A stretch of 63,106 bases of DNA, filler included, from Chiloscyllium plagiosum (taxonomy: Eukaryota): NCBI RefSeq assembly GCF_004010195.1. It is 7 parts of 7 records of this genome, joined end to end, with 100 filler letters (N's around TTAATTAATTAA, not from the genome) between each part and the next. Parts side by side here need not be neighbours in the genome. Positions count along the whole stretch, not along the records: positions 18,208 to 23,964 come from NW_025203326.1; 6 more parts are not named here. One strand, 5' to 3'. The position numbers were made by a program, and so were the translations under genes. Each line of letters begins with the position of its first letter. The first letter of the stretch is position 1. The notes beneath the pieces were generated by a model, which did not search any database, had not been told where the DNA came from, and was given only the letters and a program-made list of their open reading frames with translations. Below, piece after piece: positions 1,140 to 53,803 of this stretch.

Positions 1140-1560
1140 CCTGTCTTCCACTGTGCAGTTGAAATCGATAGGCCCTACTCATTTTCATTCACCTTATCTC
1201 GTCAGTGTATCAGATTCCCCCAGTCTGGGTGGCTTTACTGTACCCACATGGCTCTACTGGGATAAACTCCCGAACAATTCACCATTGACCACTCATTTCT
1301 CCCTGTTTTACCTCAACAAAGTCATTCAAGGACATGGCATCCGCTCCTACTGAAAGATCAGGCATGCATTTCTAAGTAATCTAATCTAATCTAATCTATT
1401 TGATCACCCCCTCTGTCAAATGTCGCCCTGCCGCTGCACCACATCTCCACCGTTCTCCCAACTCCCGTAACTGCCACAGGTCGGACAACACTGAACTCAG
1501 ACAAGGGTTGTCTCAACTAGAAACCTTCCACGTCATGCCAAAATATTTCAAATTCTCTTG
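1140..1560 (+). mobile_element. Degenerate Penelope-like element, GIY-YIG endonuclease remnant
   Basis: Translation QCIRFPQSGWLY resembles the PLE motif YCIxCxxCGLLYIGET; frames broken. Confidence 0.45.
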
Positions 1561-1760
1561 GTCACCAATCAGACCTGAGCCATCCTCATCTTGCAACACC
1601 TACTTCCGTCCATTTGCCTTAAACAGAACCAATTCATTGAGATTGTCTCAGACACAGAGTCGATGCCTGAATGCACCAGGGAGTCCCAGATGGTTATAAT
1701 TTTTCCACCGATTTTCGCTGGCTGTTGCTGTCTTCCTGCTCGAGATCTTCCCTGCCCAAG

Positions 1761-1815
1761 ATGTCTGTGTTCCACGTGCTGTTCTATCTCTCAGCCTTGG
1801 GAATAATTTATACAG
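1761..1815 (+). CDS. Signal-peptide (leader) exon of a non-rearranging VJ-type IgSF gene
   Basis: ATG 1761 encodes hydrophobic MSVFHVLFYLSALGIIYT; phase-1 donor G|GT at 1815/1816 matches the phase of the next exon. Confidence 0.75.
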
Positions 1816-2008
1816 GTCTATAAATATTGACAGTCATCTAGCGGATAGGAATATGAATGGAAATCCCGGGAACTCAAAACTGGAAGCTTCGTTTTCATGA
1901 TTAGTTATTTGATTTTCTTTCGTTAAGTTTCTTACCCATTATTTTACCTCTTTTCCTTTTTCAGGAGATGAAACATGAACAACTAATGTTTGTGTATATT
2001 TCTGGTAG

Positions 2009-2329
2009 ATACTGGCGAAACCCCTTTGCCTGTGATGCAAATCCCTGCGTGCCTGACTGCAGTGGAAGGTGCAAATGTGTCAATGTATTGCTCCATCCCG
2101 CTTTTCGATCGCACAATATCGGTGGATGTCTCTTGGCGGAAAGATGGGCAGACCAAAACTTTGGACCCAACAGCAGACACAAGGAAAACAATATTACCGT
2201 TCAAGCAAGCATCTGCTGAATTCCATCTGTTGAATGTGAGCTTCCGGGACTCCGGAATCTATTACTGTAGCATCAGCGTCTTCGGCAGGAAGGCTTCCAA
2301 TGGGAATGGGACTAAGCTTATCGTACACG
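2009..2329 (+). CDS. Single-exon germline-joined VJ-type Ig V-set domain (NCR3/NKp30-like non-rearranging receptor family; exact family unresolved)
   Basis: AG acceptor 2007-2008; B-strand Cys (MYC), C-strand Trp (VSW), DSGIYYC and J-like GNGTKLIV in one exon; phase-1 donor G|GTGAGT at 2329/2330; no RSS. Confidence 0.85.
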
Positions 2330-3459
2330 GTGAGTGTCACTGAGGAGAAATGGACAACGTTAAATTAGGCAGGTTTCCATCGATAGCAGATAACAAGAGC
2401 AGCACGGTGTCTGCTAATAGTTTGGTGCCGCAATGCAAGCTTGTTTTTTTTTCAGTTCAAGGAGACTTAGACCGAACTTGTGCTGGTGTACATCAGACTT
2501 GCCGTCCGCGGTCAATCAAAGCTAGCCAAGCCGTGTAATGTATTTAATCTTGTTTTATATCGACTATTTAAAATAAGATAAGTTATCCTAAATAATGCTC
2601 CACTTGATTTAGGTAGCCATCGGAAATGAAGTGCATTAGATTTGTCATGGAGTTCAACGTGGAAAGAAGTGTTTTTCTTTTAAAGGGGTAAATGTCAGGT
2701 TTTCAAAATCGATTATCAAATAGGTGCAAGTGATCATAAACGGATACAGCTACAGCACGATGTGAGTAATGCACAACGAGAGCAAATAATTATCCTCCAG
2801 AAGAGGAACAGGTTTTAGGAAAACATTCCTATGCAAACTAATGTAGAACGAATTATTAAATGCTGTCTCAGAAATGACGTGCATCCTCACACTGTCTGGT
2901 TGGAATATTAAATACTTAGAAGTGCTCACTGAAAGTTTTCCTGAGAAGCAGAGAGGATTATTTGGACTGCTTCTATAGTAAACTTGAAACTGGAACTGTA
3001 CTTACGCTGCTTCCAAGTATGATTTTGAGGAGGTGTTTACGTTTACTTCGAGATTAAATTCACAGGGATATATTTATTTTGGTTAATCCCCAATTTTGTT
3101 TGCAACTGTTGATAAATATATGCATTCCTCATTGTTTGAGACTCATCTTTAAGTCCTGATTTTAAGAAGTGGGTAAAGTTTACTGAACACTTTACCTCGT
3201 TATGTTGATACAACCAGTCTACCGACATGAAGTCGCAGTATGGAAATATTTATGAACAGTGATTTTTTCTGAATACTGGATAGGTCCTCGAGGCACTTGT
3301 TCAAGTCTGTGCACCAGCTTCAAATGAAACTGGCGTGTTTTGTAAAGCAACTCAGCCTTTGAAATGGGTAATGGCATCATCAATACCAGATGTTGGCGTG
3401 GGATTGCAACAGGATTTTGTCAATTGAAAATGAGGTTTGGAGGCATGAAGCAAATGATC

Positions 3460-3911
3460 AATGAGAAAATGGCTCAAAGGTAGAAAACAGAGGGTGATCA
3501 TGGAGGGTCGCCTTTCAGACTGGATGCCTGTGACCAGTGGTGTGCCACAAGGACCGGTGCTGGGTCCACTGCTTTTCGTCATTTACATAAATGACTTGGA
3601 TGTTAACATAGGAGGTAAAGTAAGTAAGTTAGCAGATGATATCAAAATTGGAGGTGCCGTGGACAGCAAAGACGGTTACCTCAGAAAACAACAAGAACTT
3701 GATCAGATTGGCCACTGGGCAGAAGAGTGGCAGATGGAGTTTAATTTGACAAATGTGAGGTCCTACATTTTGGAAAAGCAAATCAGGGTAGAACTTATAC
3801 ACAGAATGGGAACGTCCTGGTAAATGTTGCTGAACAGAGACCTTGGAGTGCAGGTTGATTGGTGAGGCCACATTTGGAATACGGTGTGATCTCCTTCCTA
3901 TCGGAAGGATG
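3460..3911 (+). mobile_element. CR1-type LINE reverse transcriptase fragment
   Basis: WLKGRKQRV...GVPQGPVLGPLLFVIYINDL...KLADD...WQMEFN, RT motifs typical of CR1. Confidence 0.9.
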
Positions 3912-4011
3912 NNNNNNNNNNNNNNNNNNNNNNNNNNNNNNNNNNNNNNNNNNNNTTAATTAATTAANNNNNNNNNNNNNNNNNNNNNNNNNNNNNNNNN
4001 NNNNNNNNNNN
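3912..4011. other. Artificial contig-join spacer (44 N + TTAATTAATTAA + 44 N)
   Basis: Same 100-nt structure occurs six times; the 12-mer gives stops in all six frames. Confidence 0.97.
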
Positions 4012-4479
4012 TAAACACACAAGTGCATCAACTAATTTTCAATTTTTCCAGTGGTTGTTTGAATCTCTGGACAGGTGTGGAAATGTCCGACTTTCTATAT
4101 CGCCTTGAGAAACCAGTTGTCAACAGTCTATTTCAATTGCTGAAGTTTGTGTGGCATTAGCACATTCACAGCGCTGTTAGGAAGTGAGTCCCATGGCTGT
4201 GATTGAGGAAGAGGAAACGGGCAAAGAAATAATTGAGAGTCAAGTTGAAGTCTAATTTGGAGGAGAGCTTTCAGGTGAAGCATTTACATGCATGTGCGCC
4301 CTTATCCTCAAGGATCACAGTTTTGGAACATGCTGCCGAAGGGACATGTCAGCATGCAAAATGGAAGCTGAAGAAGGCATCTCGGCCCCTCTAGAAGGCT
4401 ATTCCATTCATGGGATCATCATTAATCTTACTGCTCACCAGTCCTCCCAACACACCTATAACATTGAACCTGATTGTTT

Positions 4480-5310: not shown

Positions 5311-5550
5311 AACTTTATGGTGGAGTAGGCTCAAAGTTGGAAGGTGGTGAGCAAGTGAGGGTCTAGATAGGGAATGTGGGAGAGTTTGGGCTGGTAGGCT
5401 GTGAGTGTTGGCTGGCTGCTGGGTAAGCTTGCATGCACTCTGTCTGGCAAGGTGGTATCAAGGTAAATGGTAATGGTCACAGGATATTTTGGTCGAATTG
5501 CGCTTGGTAGGTGAGGGGTAGTTTGAGCTGAAATGCAGGAGGTCTGTCTT

Positions 5551-5622
5551 TGCCAGGCTGGTTTATGGAGAGGTGAGCAGGATGCCAGGCTGGTTAGTGT
5601 AGAGGTGGGCAGAGTGCCAGGA
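5551..5622 (+). repeat. Short (~2-unit) copy of the 32-bp G-rich repeat upstream of Cmu1
   Basis: tgccaggctggtttatggagaggtgagcagga / tgccaggctggttagtgtagaggtgggcagag; flanks homologous to the reverse complement of the flanks of 22549-23141. Confidence 0.75.
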
Positions 5623-6799
5623 TGTTTCGGGGGTGGAAGGTCACTGTAATGAAGTGACAGGGGGACGTGTTGTCTAAATGCAAAGCTTGGAGTCTGGCAA
5701 AATGGTAGGTTGTAAAGCAGAGATGCGAAAGGAGCTAGGATGCAATGTGCACAGGTTGGCTTGGGTAAGATGAGAGGTCAGTGATCAAGGACTGAGGTCA
5801 TGTGGGCTTTTGTCAGAGGTTGTGAAAATGATGGTGCCAGGTCCAGTCAGGGCCAGATTCACCATGGGCCAGGTGCAGGGCGGCAGGAGTGTAAATGAGT
5901 GAAAGGAATTGAGATCATATGTCCATCTGGAATATAGAATATAGAACATNNNNNNNNNNNNNNNNNNNNNNNNNNNNNNNNNNNNNNNNNNNNNNNNNNN
6001 NNNNNNNNNNNNNNNNNNNNNNNNNNNNNNNNNNNNNNNNNNNNNNNNNNNNNNNNNNNNNNNNNNNNNNNNNNNNNNNNNNNNNNNNNNNNNNNNNNNN
6101 NNNNNNNNNNNNNNNNNNNNNNNNNNNNNNNNNNNNNNNNNNNNNNNNNNNNNNNNNNNNNNNNNNNNNNNNNNNNNNNNNNNNNNNNNNNNNNNNNNNN
6201 NNNNNNNNNNNNNNNNNNNNNNNNNNNNNNNNNNNNNNNNNNNNNNNNNNNNNNNNNNNNNNNNNNNNNNNNNNNNNNNNNNNNNNNNNNNNNNNNNNNN
6301 NNNNNNNNNNNNNNNNNNNNNNNNNNNNNNNNNNNNNNNNNNNNNNNNNNNNNNNNNNNNNNNNNNNNNNNNNNNNNNNNNNNNNNNNNNNNNNNNNNNN
6401 NNGGGTAGGGTTTGTCAATGTGAGTGGAAATTTAGGTCAAGGCAGAGTAAGTGCAGTGGTTAGTCTGTAAGATGAGGTTTGGTGGTGAACTGCGTGTCAG
6501 TTTGATAGTTATTAAAGTTAAAGATTACTTGTTCATTTCTCAAATCATATTTACATAAATACTCAGCTGTAACACTCCAAAGTCTCTGAACCTTAATGGT
6601 CCTCCATTTTTCAGAGGCATCCAGAATTCAGATAATTGTAAATTAGATGTTTCAACTTCCAGCCAATTGGCATGAGTTCAGCCGTGACAGCCATCCTCCT
6701 AGTCCCAGTGCTCAGCTCCTGCCTGTGCTGCTGCTGCAGAGACCTCCCTCCCAGTGAGAACATTCTGCCTTACATTGATAAGTGAGGAAGGCTCACTGG

Positions 6800-7170: not shown

Positions 7171-7475
7171 GGCACGCTGGTTCCGTGGTTAGTGTTGCTG
7201 CCTCACAGTGCTAGGGACTCGGGTTCCATTCCAGCCTCGGGTGACTGTGTGGAGTTGGCACTTTCTCCCCATGTCTTTGTGCGTTTCCTCCCACAGTCCA
7301 AAGATGTGCAAGCTGGGGGAATTGCAAATGTTGTGTTCAGTGATTGGGATTTTAGGTGCATTAGTCAGGGTTAACTGTATCATAATAGGGTAGGGGAATG
7401 GGTCTGGATGCGTTACTTTTCAGAGGGTAGGTGTGAACTTGTTGGGTCAAATGGCCTGTTTGTACACACTGTAGA
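7171..7475 (+). mobile_element. tRNA-derived shark SINE
   Basis: ggcacgctggttccgtggttagtgttgctgcctcacagtgctagggactcgggttccattcc has A/B-box-like motifs; same family recurs at 7835, 51565 and 57722. Confidence 0.8.
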
Positions 7476-8475
7476 ATTTCGATGAATCTGCATTTCCTTG
7501 GTTTGTATTTTGTGAAACGTCTCTGTTCTTCACAGCAATCCAGTGAAAGTGTCAGTTGGTGAGATCTTCAAACAGTTACTGGAGTGGGATCAGGATGTTC
7601 TTCTTCCTAAATTATATGGTAATGGTCAACGTCGAGGGCATGTTTCTAAAGAGGGAACCAATGATCATGATCAGCAACTGGAAGGAAACAAAAATAAACT
7701 CCAGTTATGCTGTAGGCTTCAGCGGGAGCATACTGGCAAACGTTTACAGCTGAGGATACATTTGAGTAACTGATAAGGTCAAATTAACAGAAACTAACAT
7801 GCTCAATTGGTCATTCTATTGTAGAGACACCATCCTGCCTCACAGTGCTAGGGACTCGGGTTCCATTCCAGCCTCTGGTGACTGTCTGTGTGGAGTTGGC
7901 ACTTTCTCCCCATGTCTGTGTGCGTTTCCTCCCACACTCCAAAGATGTGCAAGCTGGGGGAATTGCAAATGTTGTGTTCAGTGATTGGGATTTTAGGCGC
8001 ATTAGCCAGGGTTAACTGTATCATAATAGGGTAGGGGAATGGGTCTGGATGCGTTACTTTTCAGAGGGTAGGTGTGGACTTGTTGGGTCAAATGGCCTGT
8101 TTATACACACTGTAGAATTTCGATGAATCTGCATTTCCTTGGTTTGTATTTTGTGAAATGTCTCTGTTCTTCACAGCAATCCAGTGAAAGTGTCAGTTGG
8201 TGAGATCTTCAAACAGTTACTGGAGTGGGATCAGGATGTTCTTCTTCCTAAATTATATGGTAATGGTCAACGTCGACGGCATGTTTCTAAAGAGGGAACC
8301 AATGATCATGATCATCAACTGGAAGGAAACAAAAATAAACTCCAGTTATGCTGTAGGCTTCAGCGGGAGCATACTGGCAAACGTTTAGAGCTGAGGATAC
8401 AATTGAATAACTGATCAGGTCAAATTAACAGAAACTAACATGCTCACTTGGTCATTCTATTGCAGAGACACCATC
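7198..8475 (+). repeat. ~640-bp tandem duplication (SINE + pre-Cmu1 intron + first 10 nt of Cmu1)
   Basis: ORFs at 7543 and 8184 are near identical (offset 641); copy 1 ends TAG|AGACACCATC at 7834. Confidence 0.9.
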
Positions 8476-10530: not shown

Positions 10531-11938
10531 CTTTATTTTGACTGCTATTATTTTCTCATGGTCCCTTTTGCTCTTCTCATTCCTTTGTCTTTCAAACTCC
10601 TCCTTGCACATTCTATACTCCCTATTAGTTTCTATTGTTTTGAGATTTCAGTATAGACCGGAAGCCTCCCTTGTTTCTCTTTATCTCCCCCTCCATGCCC
10701 TTTGGTGACCAGAGCCCGCTGCATTCTTAGTCCCACGCAGTGGCTTCCTGGGAAATGTCCTCCCTTTGAATTTCCTATCTCTTTCTTAAATGTGTCACAC
10801 TGCTCTGACTCAGATTTACCAATAAGTGTCAGCTTCCAGTACACTCTGGTCGAGTCATTACCTGATCTTATTAAAACTGTCTTTCCCCTTTTCAGAACGT
10901 TGGGCCAATTTCTATTCCTTTGCAGTACAATGTGAAATCTAACTGATTTACGATCACTGTCTGCAAAGTGCTCCACCATTGATATTTTACCCACTGCGTC
11001 GACTTCATTCCCTAAAGTTAAGTTCAGGTTCACCCCTCACTTGCAAGGTCTGGATTAAAATTCTCTGTATTAAACACATACTTTGTGCAAATATTCTTCT
11101 GGGGGCATTTTCAGAATTGTGCTTCCTCTACATTTTTGACAAAATGAATATCCAAGCCTATGCTGAGGAAGTTAAAAACCTCTTTTCTCATTCCCCTATT
11201 TAATTTACACGTCTCTAAAATTTGCCCATNNNNNNNNNNNNNNNNNNNNNNNNATGTTGACTGCTATTATTTTCTCCTGGGCCCTTTTGCTCTTCTAACT
11301 CCTTTGTCTTTCGAACTCCCCCTTGCACGTTCTGTACTCCATATTGTTTTGAGATTTCAGTACAGACCAGAAGCCTCCCTTGTTTCTCTTTATCTCCCCC
11401 TCCATGCCCTTTGGTGTCCAGAGCCCGCTGCATTCTTGGTACCACGCAGTGGCTTCCTGGGAAATGTCCTCCCTGTGATTTTCCTATCTCTTTCTTAAAT
11501 GTGTCACACTGCTCTGACTCAGATTTACCAATAAGTGTCAGCTTCCAGTACACTCTGGTCGAGTCATTACCTGATCTTACTAAAACTGTCTTTCCCCTTT
11601 TCAGAACGTTGGGCCAATTTCTATTCCTTTGCAGTACAATGTGAAATCTAACTGATTTACGATCACTGTCTGCAAAGTGCTCCACAATTGATATTTTACC
11701 CACTGGGTCGACTTCATTCCCTAAAGTTAAGTTCAGGTTCACCCCTCACTTGCAAGGTCTGGATTAAAATTCTCTGTATTAAACACATACTTTGTGCAAA
11801 TATTCTTCTGGGGGCATTTTCAGAATTGTGCTCCCTCTACATTTTTGACAAAATGAATATCCAAGCCTATGCTGAGGAAGTTAAAAACCTCTTTTCTCAT
11901 TCCCCTATTTAATTTACACGTCTCTAAAATTTGCCCAT
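10531..11938. repeat. ~700-bp direct duplication flanking a small N gap (LINE-derived)
   Basis: ORFs 10702/11411 and 10979/11688 nearly identical, offset 709; gap 11230-11253. Confidence 0.85.
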
Positions 11939-18207: not shown

Positions 18208-18480
18208 CCCCCGGGTACAACAGAGTGTTACAAGGGGACAAAAAAATAAAGGTGATGGGTGGAAGGTATCGGGGGAATGTCAGGGGTAGGTTCTTTATGC
18301 AGAGAGTGGAGGGGGCATGGAATGCGCTGCCTGTCGGAGTGGCAGAGTCAGAATCATTGGTGACCTTTAAGCGGCAATTGGATAGGTACATGGATAGGTG
18401 CTTAAGTTAGGACAAATGTTCGGCACAACATCATGGGCCGAAAGGCCTGCTCTGTGCTGTATTGTTCTATGTTCTATGTA
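18208..18480 (+). mobile_element. CR1 LINE 3' end
   Basis: RFFMQRVEGAWNALP...TFKRQLDRYM and tail tgttctatgttctatg. Confidence 0.85.
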
Positions 18481-20524
18481 GCGATTTCTTCACTGCGACG
18501 CACGATCAGAAGAAGAGTTGTTGGAGAAGTGGACCTTTATGAAAAACATCATATAAATTATCTGACAAATTTGATTAAAAAAATACATTCAGTTCTTATG
18601 TAACAAAGTGAGTTGTGGTTAATAGATACGAACCTTGATATTACAACCATCATATTTGTCCAGAGTGCTATAGAAGCTGAGATCAACACAGTACAATTAG
18701 ACGGGCGATGTGATAATGACAATGTAATGCTAAAATTAGAGGTCAGAGCAAGGAGGTCAAGAAGGTACAAAAATGATGGGCCAGTTTAATCAGAGGGAGA
18801 GATAGCAAGTTTGGATGGTATTCATTTTAACGAAAGGAGTATGATAAACAATGCTGATGAGTTAACGGCATAAATGAGGAAGTGTGCAATTGATATCATG
18901 GAGACATGCTGCGAGAGGGGCAAGAGTGGCAGTTCAATAGTCCAAATATAATGCCTTCAAGTGAGACAGGGAAAAATAAAGATGGAGTGGAAACGGTGAA
19001 GATTGTTAATGTTCACCAGTGTGAGGGAATAAGTGGACATAGAAAACATTGTGAAGTGTTGTGATTTTTTTCAGAAATTAGGATAGGTGATGTGATGTGC
19101 TGTGTTGCTGGATGAAAAAATAGTAATATTTCCAGGGCAGATAACATGTATGCCAAGCAAAGGATGAAATAGTGGGTGGCTGGCAATAAGTTATAATTCC
19201 TGGCCACCTAGGGATATGGTAAAACTGCCAATGTGGTATTGTTATGCAGGACAGACGAAGAGAAAAATCATGAAACCACAGGCTCGGCTCAAGCTCGGCT
19301 CTGTACTAGGGAAGACATTGTAACTATGGAGAGGGGAATTAACCTTCATCTGGAAGGTTAATCAACAATTCTCAGCACGATTTCATTGAGCAATTTGATG
19401 TTAGTTTTCGAAGAAGTAAGTCGATTTCCAGATGATAGTAAAGATCAGAGCCAGATGAGATCAAGTTAATTTGACGAATTGAACCCTGAGTTAGCTGAAT
19501 GGCGGAGTGCAGAGGGTAATGGTCATAGAATGTTTGTGTGGATGGAAGTAAATGTCTAGTGGTGTTCTGCAGGGATCAGTGTTGATTTATTGATATTTCT
19601 ATTATGTAAAATCGATTTAGAATACAATGCAGGAGATATGGCCATTAAGTTCACAGATGAAACGAAAATTGCCGTGTTGGTAAGTAGTNNNNNNNNNNNN
19701 NNNNNNNNNNNNNNNNNNNNNNNNNNNNNNNNNNNNNNNNNNNNNNNNNNNNNNNNNNNNNNNNNNNNNNNNNNNNNNNNNNNNNNNNNNNNNNNNNNNN
19801 NNNNNNNNNNNNNNNNNNNNNNNNNNNNNNNNNNNNNNNNNNNNNNNNNNNNNNNNNNNNNNNNNNNNNNNNNNNNNNNNNNNNNNNNNNNNNNNNNNNN
19901 NNNNNNNNNNNNNNNNNNNNNNNNNNNNNNNNTATAGGACTGCATGTTATGGAAGGAATGTGATTAGACAGAAGGCAGCATTATTGAGATTTTCCAGGAC
20001 TTTTCCTGGGCTGGAAGTTTTTAAGTTATGGAATGTCATTAACCAAACTGGGGTTTTACTTGGAGCAGAGAAGAATGAGAGAGATGATGATTGTGATGTC
20101 TAGAATTACGGTAGACATATACATAGTAAACAGGACAAATCCCTTTCCCCTTAATGGATGGAGCAATGTCTCAAGGGCATAGGTTTACGGTAAGGACAGG
20201 AGGATATTGGGGAAACCAAAATCACACAGAGTGTGTGAATCTGCAGCTCAGTGTGAGTCAGTCTTGAAGAGGCTAGGCACCGCATAACATGTGAGAAATA
20301 TGCAGATGCACATAAGAAATGTCAAGTCACACAAAGCAATGCATCAATTGCGGATATACTGGACTGGAATAGTTAGGGGGTTGTTATTGGTAGGCGTGGA
20401 CTGAATTGACCTCAGGAACTTTTCCTGTACTCTATATCTCGATGACGATGTCAAATATATTATAACTAATGACCTATTCATGTTAACCACAGGTGTGCTG
20501 TTCACCTCAGTTCCTACAAGATTT

Positions 20525-20826
20525 ACATAGCATTCCAGTGCTCTGCTTTGACCCGCTGTGTTGAACCTCACAGGAGAGTTTGCTGCAATCTGCGTCTGAC
20601 TCAGGCAGGGTCAACTGGCTGCTCAGGGTGTAAGTTCCATTGTTGTTCCTCACGGATGGATAAGTCTTCACTGCAGTCGTGATTGGCACACCACCTTTCT
20701 TCCAAATCACCTTGGTAACGTCAGTGTTATAGTCCATGGCCAAACAACCAAAGATCACAGAACCGTCAGTGTTGTGTTGCTGACAGGAGAAGACAAGTCC
20801 ATAAAGTTTGGGGAAAGATGCAGTCT
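20525..20826 (-). pseudogene. IGHM: Second IgM CH1 exon (open frame, acceptor degenerate)
   Basis: [32 protein letters not shown]...IWKK...LSCEVQH; both Cys and Trp intact; position equivalent to the acceptor reads TTG|AG, not CAG|AG; donor unclear. Confidence 0.8.
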
Positions 20827-21084
20827 CAAGGATAGCATGACCAGTTGAGCAAGTTAGTTTCTGTTAATTCGACCTTATTGGTTACCCAAATATTTCTTCA
20901 GCTGTAAATGTATACCAGTGTGTTCCTGCTAAAATCTTTAGTATACCTTGAATTTATTTTAGTTTCCAATCAGTCGTTGATCATGATCTATTGGTTCCCT
21001 CTTCAGAAACATGCCCTCTACCTTGACCATTACTATATAATTTAGAAATAGGAACACCCTGATCTGACGAAGAGTAACTGCTGA

Positions 21085-22145
21085 AAATCTCACCAACTGA
21101 CACTTTAATTGGATTGCAAGTGATGAGCATAGAGTTTTCACAAAATACAAACCAAGAAAACGTGCAAGTTGGAATTTTAAATGAAATCCGAAGTTGCTGG
21201 AGAAACCCAACAACTGGCAGCATCTGTGGAGAGAAACCAGAGTGAACGTTTCGAGTCCATTGTATCTTCCCAGCTTATCAATGTCAGCCAAAACCTGATC
21301 CCTGGAAAGAAGGCAATTGCAGAGCACTGGGCCTGAGAGTATATCTGTCACACATGATATCATGTTAATTGCCTGGAAGCTCATTGATCGACTTGACAAT
21401 TATCTGAATTCTGGAGGCCGCTGAAACAAAGAGGACCATTAAAGGTTCAGAGACTTTGGAGTGTGACAGCTAACTGAACTGAGCATTTGTGTAAATATGA
21501 TTCGAGAAATGAACAAATACACTTTAACTTCAATAACTATCAAACTGACACGCAGTTTATCGCAAAACTCTAATCTGCCAGATTAATCACTGCTCTGACT
21601 TTCTGTCTCGACGTGAAAATCTCAACAACTGACACTTTCATTGGATTGCAAGTGACGAGCATAGAGTTTTCACAAAATACAAACCAAGAAAACGTGCAAG
21701 TTGGAATTGGAAATGAAAACCGAAGTTGCTGGAGAAACCCAACAACTGGCAGCATCTGTGGAGAGAAACCAGAGTGAACATTTCGAGTCCATTGTATCTT
21801 CCCAGCTTATCAATGTCAGCCAAAACCTGCTCCCTGGAAAGAAGGCAATTGCAGAGCACTGGGCCTGAGAGTATATCTGTCACACATGATATCATGTTAA
21901 TTGCCTGGAAGCTCATTGATCGACTTGACAATTATCTAAATTCTGGAGGCCTCTGAAACAAAGAGGACCATTAAAGGTTCAGAGACTTTGGAGTGTGACA
22001 GCTAACTGAACTGAGCATTTGTGTAAATATGATTCGAGAAATGAACAAATACACTTTAACTTCAATAACTATCAAACTGACACGCAGTTTATCGCAAAAC
22101 TCTAATCTGCCAGATTAATCACTGCTCTGACTTTCTGTCTCGACG
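21085..22145. repeat. 532-bp tandem duplication upstream of Cmu1
   Basis: Minus-strand ORFs starting at 21399 and 21931 are near identical. Confidence 0.9.
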
Positions 22146-22548
22146 TCAATTTCCATTCACTTTGACAATCCCTACACTGTGACACACTCATTCACCCTTG
22201 GAAGACAGGATTCCCATCACAAGACATAACACACATTCAAGACAATCCATATTATGGACGAGAATTTAATCTCGATTCCTTTCACTCAATTCCATCCCTG
22301 CCACGCTGCACCTGGTCCATGGTGAACCTGGTCCTGGCACCAGAATTTTGACAATCCCTGACAGGACGCCACTCCCTCAGACATGACCTGAGACATTCAC
22401 CACTGAACTCTCAACTTACCCAAGTCAACCTGTGCATATTGCACTATAGCTCTGTTCCCAACTTCCCTTTACCGCCTGTGACTTCGTCAGACTCCGGGCT
22501 TTACGTTTTGTCATTATATCCACAGCTCAATTCACTTCTGAGCCACTC

Positions 22549-23141
22549 AACGCACCAACCCGACTGGCCACCCACCTCTCAACTAACCGGTGTGACACAC
22601 TGTCCACCTCTCAACTAACCAACCCAACAACCTGCCCACCTCTCAAATAACCAGGCTGGCACCCTGCTCACCTCTCAACTAATCAGTCCGACACCCTGCA
22701 AACCGCTCATCTAACCAGCCCAGCACCCTGCTTCCCACTCAACGCCCCAGCCAAACACCCAACCACCTCTCAAATAACCAGTCTGACATCCTGCCAACAT
22801 CTCAACTAAAGAGCTCGGCACACTGCCCACTTCTCAACTAAACATCCAGGTACTCTGCCAAATTCTCAACTAACCGCTCCGACACTCTGAGCAGCACTGA
22901 ACTAACCAGACTGATACCCTATTGAACTCTCAACTAACCAGCCTGACACCCTGACGTTCTCTCAACTGACCAGCCTGGTACTCTGTTTACAACTCAACAA
23001 ACCAGCCTAGCAGCCAGTCCACCTCAACCCAACCAGCTCCGCACTGCCCTCACCTTTCAACTTACCAGCCTGGCACACTACTCACCTCTCAACATTCCAG
23101 CCCTGCAGCCTGCTGACCACTCAACTAACCATCTTGGCACC
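22549..23141 (-). repeat. Degenerate 32-bp tandem array (~18 units), G-rich on the IgM sense strand
   Basis: Units start 22549, 22581, 22613, 22645, 22677...; plus-strand consensus ~AACTAACCAGCCTGGCACCCTGCCCACCTCTC. Confidence 0.9.
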
Positions 23142-23964
23142 AGATAGACTTCCTGCATTTCTGCTCATAATCCCTCTCTCCTACCAAGCACAACGCGATC
23201 AAATTATTTCCTTGTGACCATTATAATTTCCCTGATGCCACACTGCCAGACTCGGTGTATGCATGCTTACCCAGCAGCCACCCAACATCTCACCGCCTAC
23301 CAGCTCAAACTCTATCACATTAACAATCTATCCGCCACTAGCTCACCAACTTCCTACTTTGAGCCTACTGCACCACAAAGTCAGAGCGTCAGATAGTCGT
23401 ACAACACAAACAGATCCTTCAGCACCGCTTATCCATTCCAACCAGGGTTCCCAAATTAAACGAAATCCATTAGCCTGCGATTGGCCCATATCTATCGAGA
23501 TCTATTCAGTTCCTGTACCTGTCCAAATGTCTTAGAAATATTGTAACTGTATCTGCATTTACCACTTCCTCTGGCAGTTCATTCCAATGTCAGCTACTGC
23601 TGCAACACAAAGTCTCAGCCCTAATACTCAATGCTCTGTGCAATTAAGACAAGTTTTACAAACACCTTCTTCTTTCAAGAATCTATGTATCTCACCCATC
23701 AGGTCCCCATGTTCGACAAAGCCACCCATTGCCCTATCATTGCCACTCTAAGAATCGTTTTATCTGAATCACCAGGCGACTATGTCGATAACATGAATCA
23801 TTGCACTATCATTCACTTCCAGTTGTGACCAGATTTGTCTTCCTATAATGCAATGAGTCATTTTTCCTGAAGAAGGGCTCATGTTCGAAACGTTCATTCA
23901 CCTGCTCCTTGGATGCTGCCTGACCTGCTGCGCTTTTCCAGCAACACATTTTCAGCTCTGATCT

Positions 23965-51905: not shown

Positions 51906-53516
51906 CCCTGCGAGTTCATGGGTGCATTATTTTAATTAATTCCAAATTTGGCCTTGGTCACATAATTCACTGTTTCCGAAAGAATGACTCTTCAGTTGAT
52001 ATTTTGTTGTAAAATGTAGCTATTTATTGAAAATGCACAGATTGGGAACACTTAAAGCACTGTGCAGATTAAATAATTCAGTTAATGTTTTATTTTTATC
52101 CTGCAAATCCAGTTTAATCAGGGACATAACAATTCATTAACTCAAGTTACGTGTGAAACTGATCAAAACAGTGAAACTGATCTGTTCTTCATTGAATTGA
52201 GCAGAATTTCCAAATGGTCTTTGCCAATGATCTTTTCCAGCCAGAAAAATATGTATGTAGTGTACGGCGGAATTGAATGGTGTTTCTTGATCAATTATAA
52301 CACAGTCATGGCATTTGTGCTCAAGAGCAAGAACTATTAGCACATTAGACTTTTGAAATTCTATTTATATTTCTCTATGACTTGTAAACTGTTAAAAGAC
52401 AGACCTTGTGATTGAACTAGATAGTGGAGTTCTGAATTCGGATTGTAAAGCATGGATTAGATTAGTCCTTAATTATTTATTTTAAGTAAAAATGGCGCCC
52501 GAAGGTATCTGTTTTCCCTTCATTTCTAAAACCTTTGCGATTTGCCTTTCACCTAATAATAGGCTTTATGAAATTTCAACTCGCATGCTGATTGCATTGA
52601 ATGAGGAACCTGGAGCGGTTCACTATCACCAACCGTGTTAACATTGCAAAAACAATGTAGAAACCAGAAACGGTTTCCCAAATATAACACATTTAATGTT
52701 ACCCAAGCACAGTCCCCCCTCAACAGATCAACGATCACCAGATCACAACACGGTGTGTTTGCAGCAGAACTAGCTCTGGAAACATTTTCAACAGAACCAA
52801 GAACATGATGCAACCTCACAAAAAAAAACAAATTGAAGTCCATCAAAACTGCTCAGAATCCAGCAAACTAATGATTAACTTGAATAGAAATAACAACTCA
52901 TAACAGCAACCTTGTTTGTGAGGGGACTTAACACTTAAACCTGTAACGTTTCTGGCAACAGTTCAATTTATTTACAACCTGTACACCCTTCTTGATCGTG
53001 ACAACCTTGTGCAGCTCACAGTAGAGCAGTTGAAGGCGTATCTTGATTGATCAATTCATGGTCAAAACAATATTACTGAATGGACAAACATTACCACATT
53101 ATAATTTTAAGTTAGTTTCAATTACATAATCTGTTCAATTCTGCAGTTTCAGATTTTAATCCAAATTTTATTTTGAATGAGGCTACTCAAAACAAAATTC
53201 AGTTAGTTTACAATTAGCACGGAGTTTTTTTTTAAAAAGTCAATGCATTAAAAACTCGTTTTTTTCATTTTTCACACTTCCGGGTTTCTGCCTTGAGTTG
53301 TTTTTCAGACCGTTACAAATGGATGTAATGTTTTCAATCAAGCAGAGAAAAATGTGTCATATAAGTTTAACAAATGCAGAAATGATGCATGAAAAGCAAA
53401 AGAATTTCACAAATATTGGTAATGAAAAGTAATCCAGAGAGTCAATCTCCTCACCAGAAAGAAAACACCAATTACAGAAAGCATGAAAACGCTGATCAAT
53501 TTCGCAAACTGAATAA

Positions 53517-53803
53517 GAATCCAATCAACTCAATTCAACAGAATCAAGGAAAATAAAATCAGAATCCAAATAACTCAAAACAACAGATTTGATTGAAACA
53601 TAATCAGAATCCAACCAATTCAATTCAACAGAATCAAATAAAACAATTTCAAAAGCCAATCAACACAATTCAACAAAACCAAGTAAAACAATGTCTCAAT
53701 CCAATCAACACAGTTCAACCGATTCAACTAAAACAAAGCCAAACTCCAATCAACTCAATTCAACAGAATCAAGTAAAACAAACTCAGAATCTAATCAACA
53801 GAA
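53517..53803. repeat. 45-bp tandem array (~6.3 units) ~0.5 kb downstream of JH
   Basis: Units at 53517, 53562, 53607, 53652, 53697, 53742, 53787; consensus ~GAATCCAATCAACTCAATTCAACAGAATCAAGTAAAACAAAATCA. Confidence 0.85.

What the first reader, a model, noticed from the sequence alone, without database searches (positions are those of the whole stretch)
22549..23141. Switch-region-like 32-bp G-rich, AID-hotspot-dense array upstream of shark Cmu1
Seen: ~18 degenerate 32-bp units lie 1.7-2.3 kb upstream of the minus-strand Cmu1 exon, in the presumed J-C intron. On the IgM sense strand the unit is ~GAGAGGTGGGCAGGGTGCCAGGCTGGTTAGTT, which is G-skewed and carries four RGYW motifs (GGCA, GGCT, GGTT, AGTT). 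Known: tetrapod S regions are tandem, AID-hotspot-rich arrays in this position (G-rich on the non-template strand in mammals). Sharks are reported to switch between IgH clusters in the J-C intron without recognisable S regions. Inference: candidate proto-switch or R-loop-forming element. Caveat: it is poor in the palindromic AGCT motif of true S regions.
Basis: partly seen in the sequence, partly recalled or inferred. Interest (0 to 1): 0.7.

Follow-up and report, generated by a model that had tools for sequence, protein, structure and literature searches.

The report
IgM-intron minisatellite in shark pseudogene
A real G-rich 32-base tandem repeat sits in front of the first constant exon of most shark IgM antibody genes examined, where land vertebrates keep their class-switch region, but it lacks the two-strand target motif of switch regions, varies from 1 to 34 assembled copies, and this copy lies in a broken gene, so it is likely an ordinary variable repeat.

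Summary
The array is real: 17.6 copies of a 32-bp unit, 42% G on the IgM sense strand, upstream of Cmu1. It is not a genome-wide satellite: 75 of 81 exact two-unit matches lie in IgM J-C intron copies. It is absent from the one IgW and four IgNAR V-to-C spans read. Three results argue against a switch region. (1) The hotspots are one-sided: RGYW 91/kb puts target Cs on the template strand, while sense WRCY (22/kb), WGCW (18.5/kb) and AGCT (3.4/kb) sit at or below background. (2) 36 of 48 fully assembled copies hold 1-4 units, and there is no conservation peak. (3) This copy belongs to a family with no V or J found upstream, a mutated Cmu1 splice acceptor (7 of 7) and broken Cmu2/Cmu3. Best reading: an IgM-intron VNTR beside a decayed LINE tail, inherited with cluster duplication. 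Caveats: contig depth hints that the assembly under-counts units, G density suits R-loops, and one intact cluster has 9 units. The primary shark-switching papers were not available. The scan noted similar arrays in other shark genomes (unchecked).

The parts
22549..23141 (-). 32-bp G-rich minisatellite, 17-18 decayed units (mean unit-to-unit identity 0.65)
23142..23384 (-). G-skewed spacer between the LINE tail and the array; shared by IgM intron copies, no match in non-IgM DNA
   Evidence: 0 matches in 482 kb of non-IgM DNA
23385..23590 (-). 3' end of a decayed LINE (CR1-like; family name recalled), same orientation as the gene; probably reaches to about 23850 (read by eye)
   Evidence: 29 matches at about 67-71% identity in non-IgM DNA, with a shared RT C-terminal peptide; high contig depth
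23853..23964 (-). SINE-like repeat at the point where homology to the J-C intron ends in this gene family
22190..22548 (-). downstream flank; listed matches are IgM intron copies wherever checked
   Evidence: 41 matches from 71 candidates, 40 scored; not every small contig was fetched
21082..22149 (.). 536-bp tandem duplication (98% identical); absent from ungapped sister copies, possibly an assembly artefact
   Evidence: not bridged by any contig
20522..20824 (-). IgM Cmu1 exon, open frame, but its in-phase splice acceptor reads TTG instead of YAG
18481..18530 (-). start of Cmu2, cut after about 15 codons by repeat-like DNA (coordinates approximate)

Best explanation
This is a variable-number 32-bp minisatellite at a fixed place in the 3' part of the shark IgM J-C intron, likely without a selected function, and the copy in this window lies in a broken Cmu gene with no V or J found upstream. 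Shown: the unit sits about 240 bp below a decayed LINE tail and is found with IgM intron flanks. Its assembled length runs from 1 to 34 units between closely related clusters, with the same first and last unit. Long arrays in the main group are homogeneous (unit identity 0.83-0.91); those of this family are old and frozen (0.63-0.67). Inferred: the unit arose once in an ancestral IgM intron and was copied along with whole clusters. It grows and shrinks by slippage or unequal exchange. Its RGYW density is the product of one G-rich 32-mer repeated. Predicted: when transcribed in a live cluster a long array could form an R-loop, but the exposed G-rich strand has few AID target Cs and almost no AGCT, so it would rarely give breaks on both strands.
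For: Specificity. Length spread: 36 of 48 closed arrays have 1-4 units, 11 have 9 or more; long arrays are scattered among short ones on the flank tree. Motifs: WRCY 13 vs 11.4 in shuffles, WGCW 11 vs 16.1, AGCT 2 vs 3.5, GGGG 1 vs 8.0. For the single unit, RGYW is 4 vs 1.45 (P=0.03) and WGCW is 0. The young homogeneous arrays have 0-0.03 AGCT per unit. Identity around the array is 0.70-0.80 against 0.76-0.84 along the rest of the intron. No tandem unit in 1 of 1 IgW and 4 of 4 IgNAR V-to-C1 spans. Pseudogene status: intron homology stops about 770 bp above the array; no VH/JH in 140 kb of C8 holding three copies, gaps included; acceptor lost in 7 of 7 copies; Cmu2/Cmu3 broken where assembled.
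Against: RGYW is enriched, 54 vs 38+-4 in dinucleotide shuffles; both strands together give about 113 hotspots/kb against about 60/kb background. The array lies in the most G-rich part of each IgM intron profiled (33-40% G, against at most 31% in IgW/IgNAR). One cluster with intact V, J and Cmu1-4 carries 9 units. In two DNA runs, contig depth over a 2-unit array is about four times that of its flanks, so live clusters may hold more units than assembled. Germline breakpoints fall near the array 3 times against 1.2 expected (not significant, post hoc). Unchecked scan notes report a G-rich array at this place in other shark genomes, which could mean the position is conserved.
Confidence: 0.7

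Rival explanations
1. The array is not a selected switch region but acts as a passive hot spot: in transcribed IgM clusters it forms R-loops and takes template-strand AID hits, and the units shared by IgM clusters give homology that biases IgM-to-IgM exchange to this place.
For: G 41-46% on the non-template strand, inside the 35-50% elongation range (PMC4245955). GG motifs may suffice to start R-loops (PMC5485518). The unit is shared by most IgM clusters read. Contig depth hints at longer real arrays. Germline truncations at C4, C18 and C8:34.80 Mb end at or next to the array.
Against: Few target Cs on the strand that would be exposed. The array is 6 kb from JH and no nearby promoter is known. 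Breakpoint excess is 3 vs 1.2 among 37, in loci partly picked by searching for the array. IgW takes part in switching (PMC4279169) yet the one IgW read lacks the unit.
Confidence: 0.15
2. It is a true proto-switch region kept by selection, the forerunner of tetrapod S-mu, and the V-less Cmu copies behind it are switch acceptors.
For: Position, strand and G skew match mammalian S regions. Three V-less Cmu copies, each behind a 16-18 unit array, stand in a row on C8 as assembled.
Against: AGCT and GGGG, the two motifs shared by mammalian S regions (PMC4245955), are at or below chance. The V-less copies cannot splice Cmu1 in phase and have broken Cmu2/3. Their tandem order crosses assembly gaps. 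No conservation peak.
Confidence: 0.04
3. The unit is a regulatory element (a protein-binding site of an intronic enhancer or pause site) for which one or two copies are enough.
For: At least one unit is kept at this spot in all 48 closed rows, with a steady core.
Against: The neighbouring LINE fragment is kept just as widely. Rows were picked by flank homology, and four IgM loci lack the region or have a gap there. One contig of run X3 skips the whole array.
Confidence: 0.08
4. Side explanation, compatible with the others: the many 2-unit arrays are assembly collapses of longer homogeneous arrays, so the length contrast is partly an artefact.
For: 25 of 48 closed arrays have exactly 2 units, in the main group the first and the last. 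Long homogeneous arrays sit on small contigs or at contig ends. The array bin is 13,637 and 11,625 deep against 1,326-4,136 and 1,702-3,455 in five neighbouring bins.
Against: The tool states that summed contig depth is no copy number, and branching in repeats inflates it. The known long arrays would already raise the bin. Arrays of 1, 3, 4, 5, 9 and 34 units did assemble with both flanks.
Confidence: 0.35

Closest known systems
Mammalian IgH switch regions (S-mu, S-gamma, S-alpha); PMC4245955 (passages seen), PMC5485518 (passages seen)
   Same: [quoted passage not shown]
   Different: AGCT 3.4/kb, against 4 per 80 bp in the working synthetic S regions of PMC4245955. GGGG is below chance. 0.06-1.1 kb and mostly under 0.2 kb as assembled, against kilobases (S-region length recalled). 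No counterpart before the other isotypes read, no known promoter, and this copy is in a pseudogene.
Xenopus S-mu (AT-rich; PMC4279169 and PMC5485518 passages; its AGCT richness is recalled)
   Same: Tandem repeat in the J-Cmu intron of a cold-blooded vertebrate.
   Different: This array is G-rich and poor in the palindromic motif.
Intronic minisatellites / VNTRs (general knowledge)
   Same: 10-60 bp unit, strand-skewed purine content, variable unit number, homogenised young arrays and decayed old ones, next to a retroelement tail.
   Different: Spread over dozens of paralogous gene clusters by cluster duplication, not at a single locus.
Shark inter-cluster IgH switching without S regions (Zhu 2012, Zhang 2013; seen only through reviews PMC4279169, PMC4588147, PMC8201067)
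   Different: The reviews state that no switch regions were found. Whether the primary papers describe this repeat is unknown.

Membership tests
IgH switch (S) region | Tandem repeat between JH and the first C exon | tested here: met
   Met in clusters with V and J (C8:69.4-69.5 Mb). This copy has no J found upstream.
IgH switch (S) region | G-rich non-template strand (mammalian type) | tested here: met
   G 41.7%, C 11.8%
IgH switch (S) region | Dense palindromic AGCT/WGCW motifs | tested here: not met
   AGCT 2 (3.4/kb, background 4.4); WGCW 11 (18.5/kb, background 22; shuffles 16.1)
IgH switch (S) region | G clusters (GGGG) enriched | tested here: not met
   GGGG 1 vs 8.0, GGG 18 vs 25.6 in dinucleotide shuffles. 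GGG is still 30/kb against about 10/kb background, and GG may suffice.
IgH switch (S) region | Long array present in functional loci | tested here: inconclusive
   36 of 48 closed arrays have 1-4 units; one intact cluster has 9; the assembly may under-count
IgH switch (S) region | A repetitive partner region before each isotype that switches | tested here: not met
   No unit and no tandem repeat (period >=8, >=3 copies) between V/J and C1 in 1 IgW and 4 IgNAR loci; only one IgW was found
IgH switch (S) region | Germline transcript from an upstream promoter | tested here: inconclusive
   One read touches the array edge and none lies on Cmu1 of this family; only about 2% and 6% of the two RNA runs were read
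IgH switch (S) region | AID-dependent junctions and R-loops map to it | not testable with these tools
   Needs B-cell DNA; primary papers not held
Minisatellite / VNTR | Head-to-tail unit of 10-60 bp | tested here: met
   Period 32
Minisatellite / VNTR | Variable unit number between copies with shared flanks | tested here: met
   1-34 units among paralogues, as assembled
Minisatellite / VNTR | Length polymorphism between individuals | tested here: inconclusive
   One contig in run X3 skips the array; paralogue and allele cannot be told apart

The most novel reading that the evidence does not exclude
Live shark IgM clusters carry much longer arrays than the assembly shows, and this shared G-rich array is the R-loop-forming site where AID-driven exchange between IgM clusters concentrates: an AGCT-free, template-strand-biased forerunner of S-mu.
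Probability: 0.12. Interest if true: 0.75.

Novelty: new member of a known kind. Interest (0 to 1): 0.22.

Why it matters
How sharks exchange V regions between IgH clusters without switch regions is still open (PMC4279169, PMC4588147). This array lies in the most G-rich block of the IgM introns profiled, so it is a defined place to test first with junction mapping. If junctions ignore it, it is an ordinary VNTR, useful only as a marker of cluster lineages and as a warning that short-read assemblies may misreport it.

Tried and rejected
Genome-wide satellite or transposon part: rejected. Structured RNA: no Rfam match at E<=0.1 in 20900-23964. Canonical G-quadruplex: one G3 pattern with loops up to 12 in this array, none in two long young arrays. 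Translocon-like row of V-less switch acceptors: rejected because the copies are broken. RNA evidence: no RNA holder listed. Run X13 gave up to 7 reads deep on main-group Cmu1 and none on this family's Cmu1; X14 gave nothing; too thin to count. The 39%-identity CH1 hits were mostly light-chain C exons (five translated), not IgW. A Cmu4 search found only IgM. The full HMMER protein search never ran. Primary papers were not held: Zhu 2012, Zhang 2013, Hsu 2016, Zhang 2014, Zhang 2015. The breakpoint tally was inconclusive. In the flank tree two C8:69 rows have long branches, and 4 of 60 rows were left out for gaps or short flanks.

Full report
Observation. The window is a pack of seven stretches; the finding lies in stretch 3 (18208-23964 = G000:C89921:1-5757). 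TRF reports period 32, 17.6 copies at 22571-23131. The sense (minus) strand is 41.7% G and 11.8% C. The exon at about 20522-20824 is IgM Cmu1: Pfam C1-set, 72% identical to nurse shark IgM. A 536-bp tandem duplication lies between array and exon; ungapped sister copies have 1.2 kb there.

Where the unit occurs. A DNA search of the 3.56-Gb genome gave 46 matches from 40 scored candidates, and an exact 18-mer gave 6. A two-unit pattern with up to one mismatch gave 160 matches against 54 for the control; 100 were listed. Of the 81 exact ones, 75 lie in loci I fetched and found to have IgM intron flanks. The other 6 (C3, C28, C29, three on C30) have unrelated spacers and were not fetched. In 482 kb of light-chain, IgW, IgNAR and other DNA the profile found 4 single weak hits and 0 tandem pairs. 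One IgW locus and four IgNAR loci read without gaps from V to C1 have no unit and no tandem repeat in that span. These isotype labels rest on similarity to an IgW-like protein (P0027) and on my knowledge of the domain layouts; only one IgW was found. In clusters that keep V and J (C8:69.4-69.5 Mb), the array is about 6.2-6.3 kb below JH and 1.2 kb above Cmu1.

Anatomy. On the sense strand the order is a decayed LINE 3' end (23590-23385; 29 matches in non-IgM DNA and a shared reverse-transcriptase tail peptide; 'CR1' is my recalled label), a 240-bp G-skewed spacer, the array, and a flank whose checked matches are IgM introns. Of 61 rows anchored on the upstream flank, I dropped 11 open rows and 2 mis-paired rows. 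The 48 closed arrays hold 1 unit (6), 2 (25), 3-4 (5), 5 (1) and 9-34 (11); some rows may be alleles of one locus. Main-group arrays share their first and last unit. On a flank tree of 56 rows the 9-34 unit main-group arrays are scattered among 1-3 unit ones, while this family and the C8:69 group lie outside the main group with 9-18 units (midpoint root, bootstrap not settled). Units are 0.83-0.91 alike in long main-group arrays and 0.63-0.67 in the older ones; this copy matches its sister unit for unit at 0.95. That pattern fits a VNTR that turns over in some lineages and froze in this one.

This locus is dead. Intron homology stops about 770 bp above the array at a SINE-like repeat, and the DNA beyond is unrelated to the intron and shared by the family. 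No VH or JH was found in 140 kb of C8 around three copies; that region has gaps, but 25 kb above the first copy is gap-free. The in-phase Cmu1 acceptor is TTG in 7 of 7 copies, against YAG in main-group clusters and in the intact C8:69.43 cluster. Cmu2 and Cmu3 are frameshifted or stopped where assembled, and here Cmu2 is cut by repeat-like DNA. RNA gave nothing usable.

Motifs. RGYW is enriched (54 vs 38+-4), but the units are not independent; for the single unit it is 4 vs 1.45, P=0.03. RGYW on the sense strand puts the target C on the template strand (established AID chemistry, recalled). The strand an R-loop would expose has 22 WRCY/kb against 30/kb background. AGCT (2), WGCW (11) and GGGG (1) are at or below shuffles. 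PMC4245955 (passages seen) names AGCT and GGGG as the two motifs shared by mammalian S regions and 35-50% G as the elongation range; the array meets the last only. PMC5485518 (passages) says GG motifs may start R-loops, so an R-loop is plausible. Identity between distant clusters shows no peak at the array.

Results against my reading. Every IgM intron profiled has its most G-rich 600 bp at this place (33-40% G; IgW and IgNAR at most 31%). The intact cluster at C8:69.43 Mb has 9 units. Contig depth over a 2-unit array is about four times its flanks in two DNA runs. The tool warns that this is no copy number, but collapse of homogeneous arrays is not excluded. Three of 37 germline breakpoints fall within 100 bp of the array against 1.2 expected. 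The tally merged C4 with C18 and set C101108 aside, so 5 is the upper count; the loci were partly chosen through the array. Scan notes (AI-written, unchecked) report G-rich arrays at this place in other shark genomes and judged them ordinary. A look-up by sequence found no look-alike.

Literature. The reviews PMC4279169, PMC4588147 and PMC8201067 (passages seen) say that sharks switch between clusters without S regions, and PMC4279169 adds that this includes IgM and IgW; PMC5192425 (passages) notes switching between clusters. PMC2435157, PMC8692893 and PMC12227049 were searched by term and showed no mention of this repeat in the passages seen. Searches listed no paper on it. The primary switching papers and their supplements were not held, so it may already be described there.

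Verdict. It fails the S-region membership tests that could be run, and this copy cannot serve in switching. Most likely it is an intronic VNTR (0.7). A passive hot-spot role in live clusters stays open (0.15). Interest 0.22.

Noticed in passing
G000:C8:32.757-32.808 Mb, C101108, C94907, C79325, C89921: A family of at least 7 Cmu pseudogenes. The six with enough upstream sequence share one 5' breakpoint at a SINE, and five or six share kilobases of unrelated upstream DNA; all seven lack the Cmu1 acceptor. Three stand in a row, separated by assembly gaps.
   Followed up: yes
G000:C4:182.0-182.5 kb (L019): The array's 3' end is joined within about 20 bp to the last third of Cmu3: a germline deletion of Cmu1-Cmu2. 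At C18:58.354 Mb (L097) intron homology also stops at the array's end.
   Followed up: partly
G000:C37:33.195-33.202 Mb (L108): A V domain with a J-like end in one frame, followed by two C-like exons (one confirmed as C1-set); resembles the non-rearranging UrIg type described in PMC12227049 (not compared by sequence).
   Followed up: no
G000:C100836:12544-23088 (L120-L121): An IgW-like locus with two CH1-like exons in a row and a 29-bp x 69 array, C-rich on the sense strand, between later C exons.
   Followed up: no
window 7198-8475, 10535-11938, 21082-22149: Three near-perfect tandem duplications of 536-695 bp in the two IgM stretches; possibly assembly artefacts.
   Followed up: no
window 53512-53799: A 45-bp x 6.4 A-rich array about 0.5 kb below a JH segment (54350, minus strand) whose VH is at about 55580.
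   Followed up: no
window 5547-5635: The 2-unit form of the same repeat, in the second IgM stretch of this window.
   Followed up: yes
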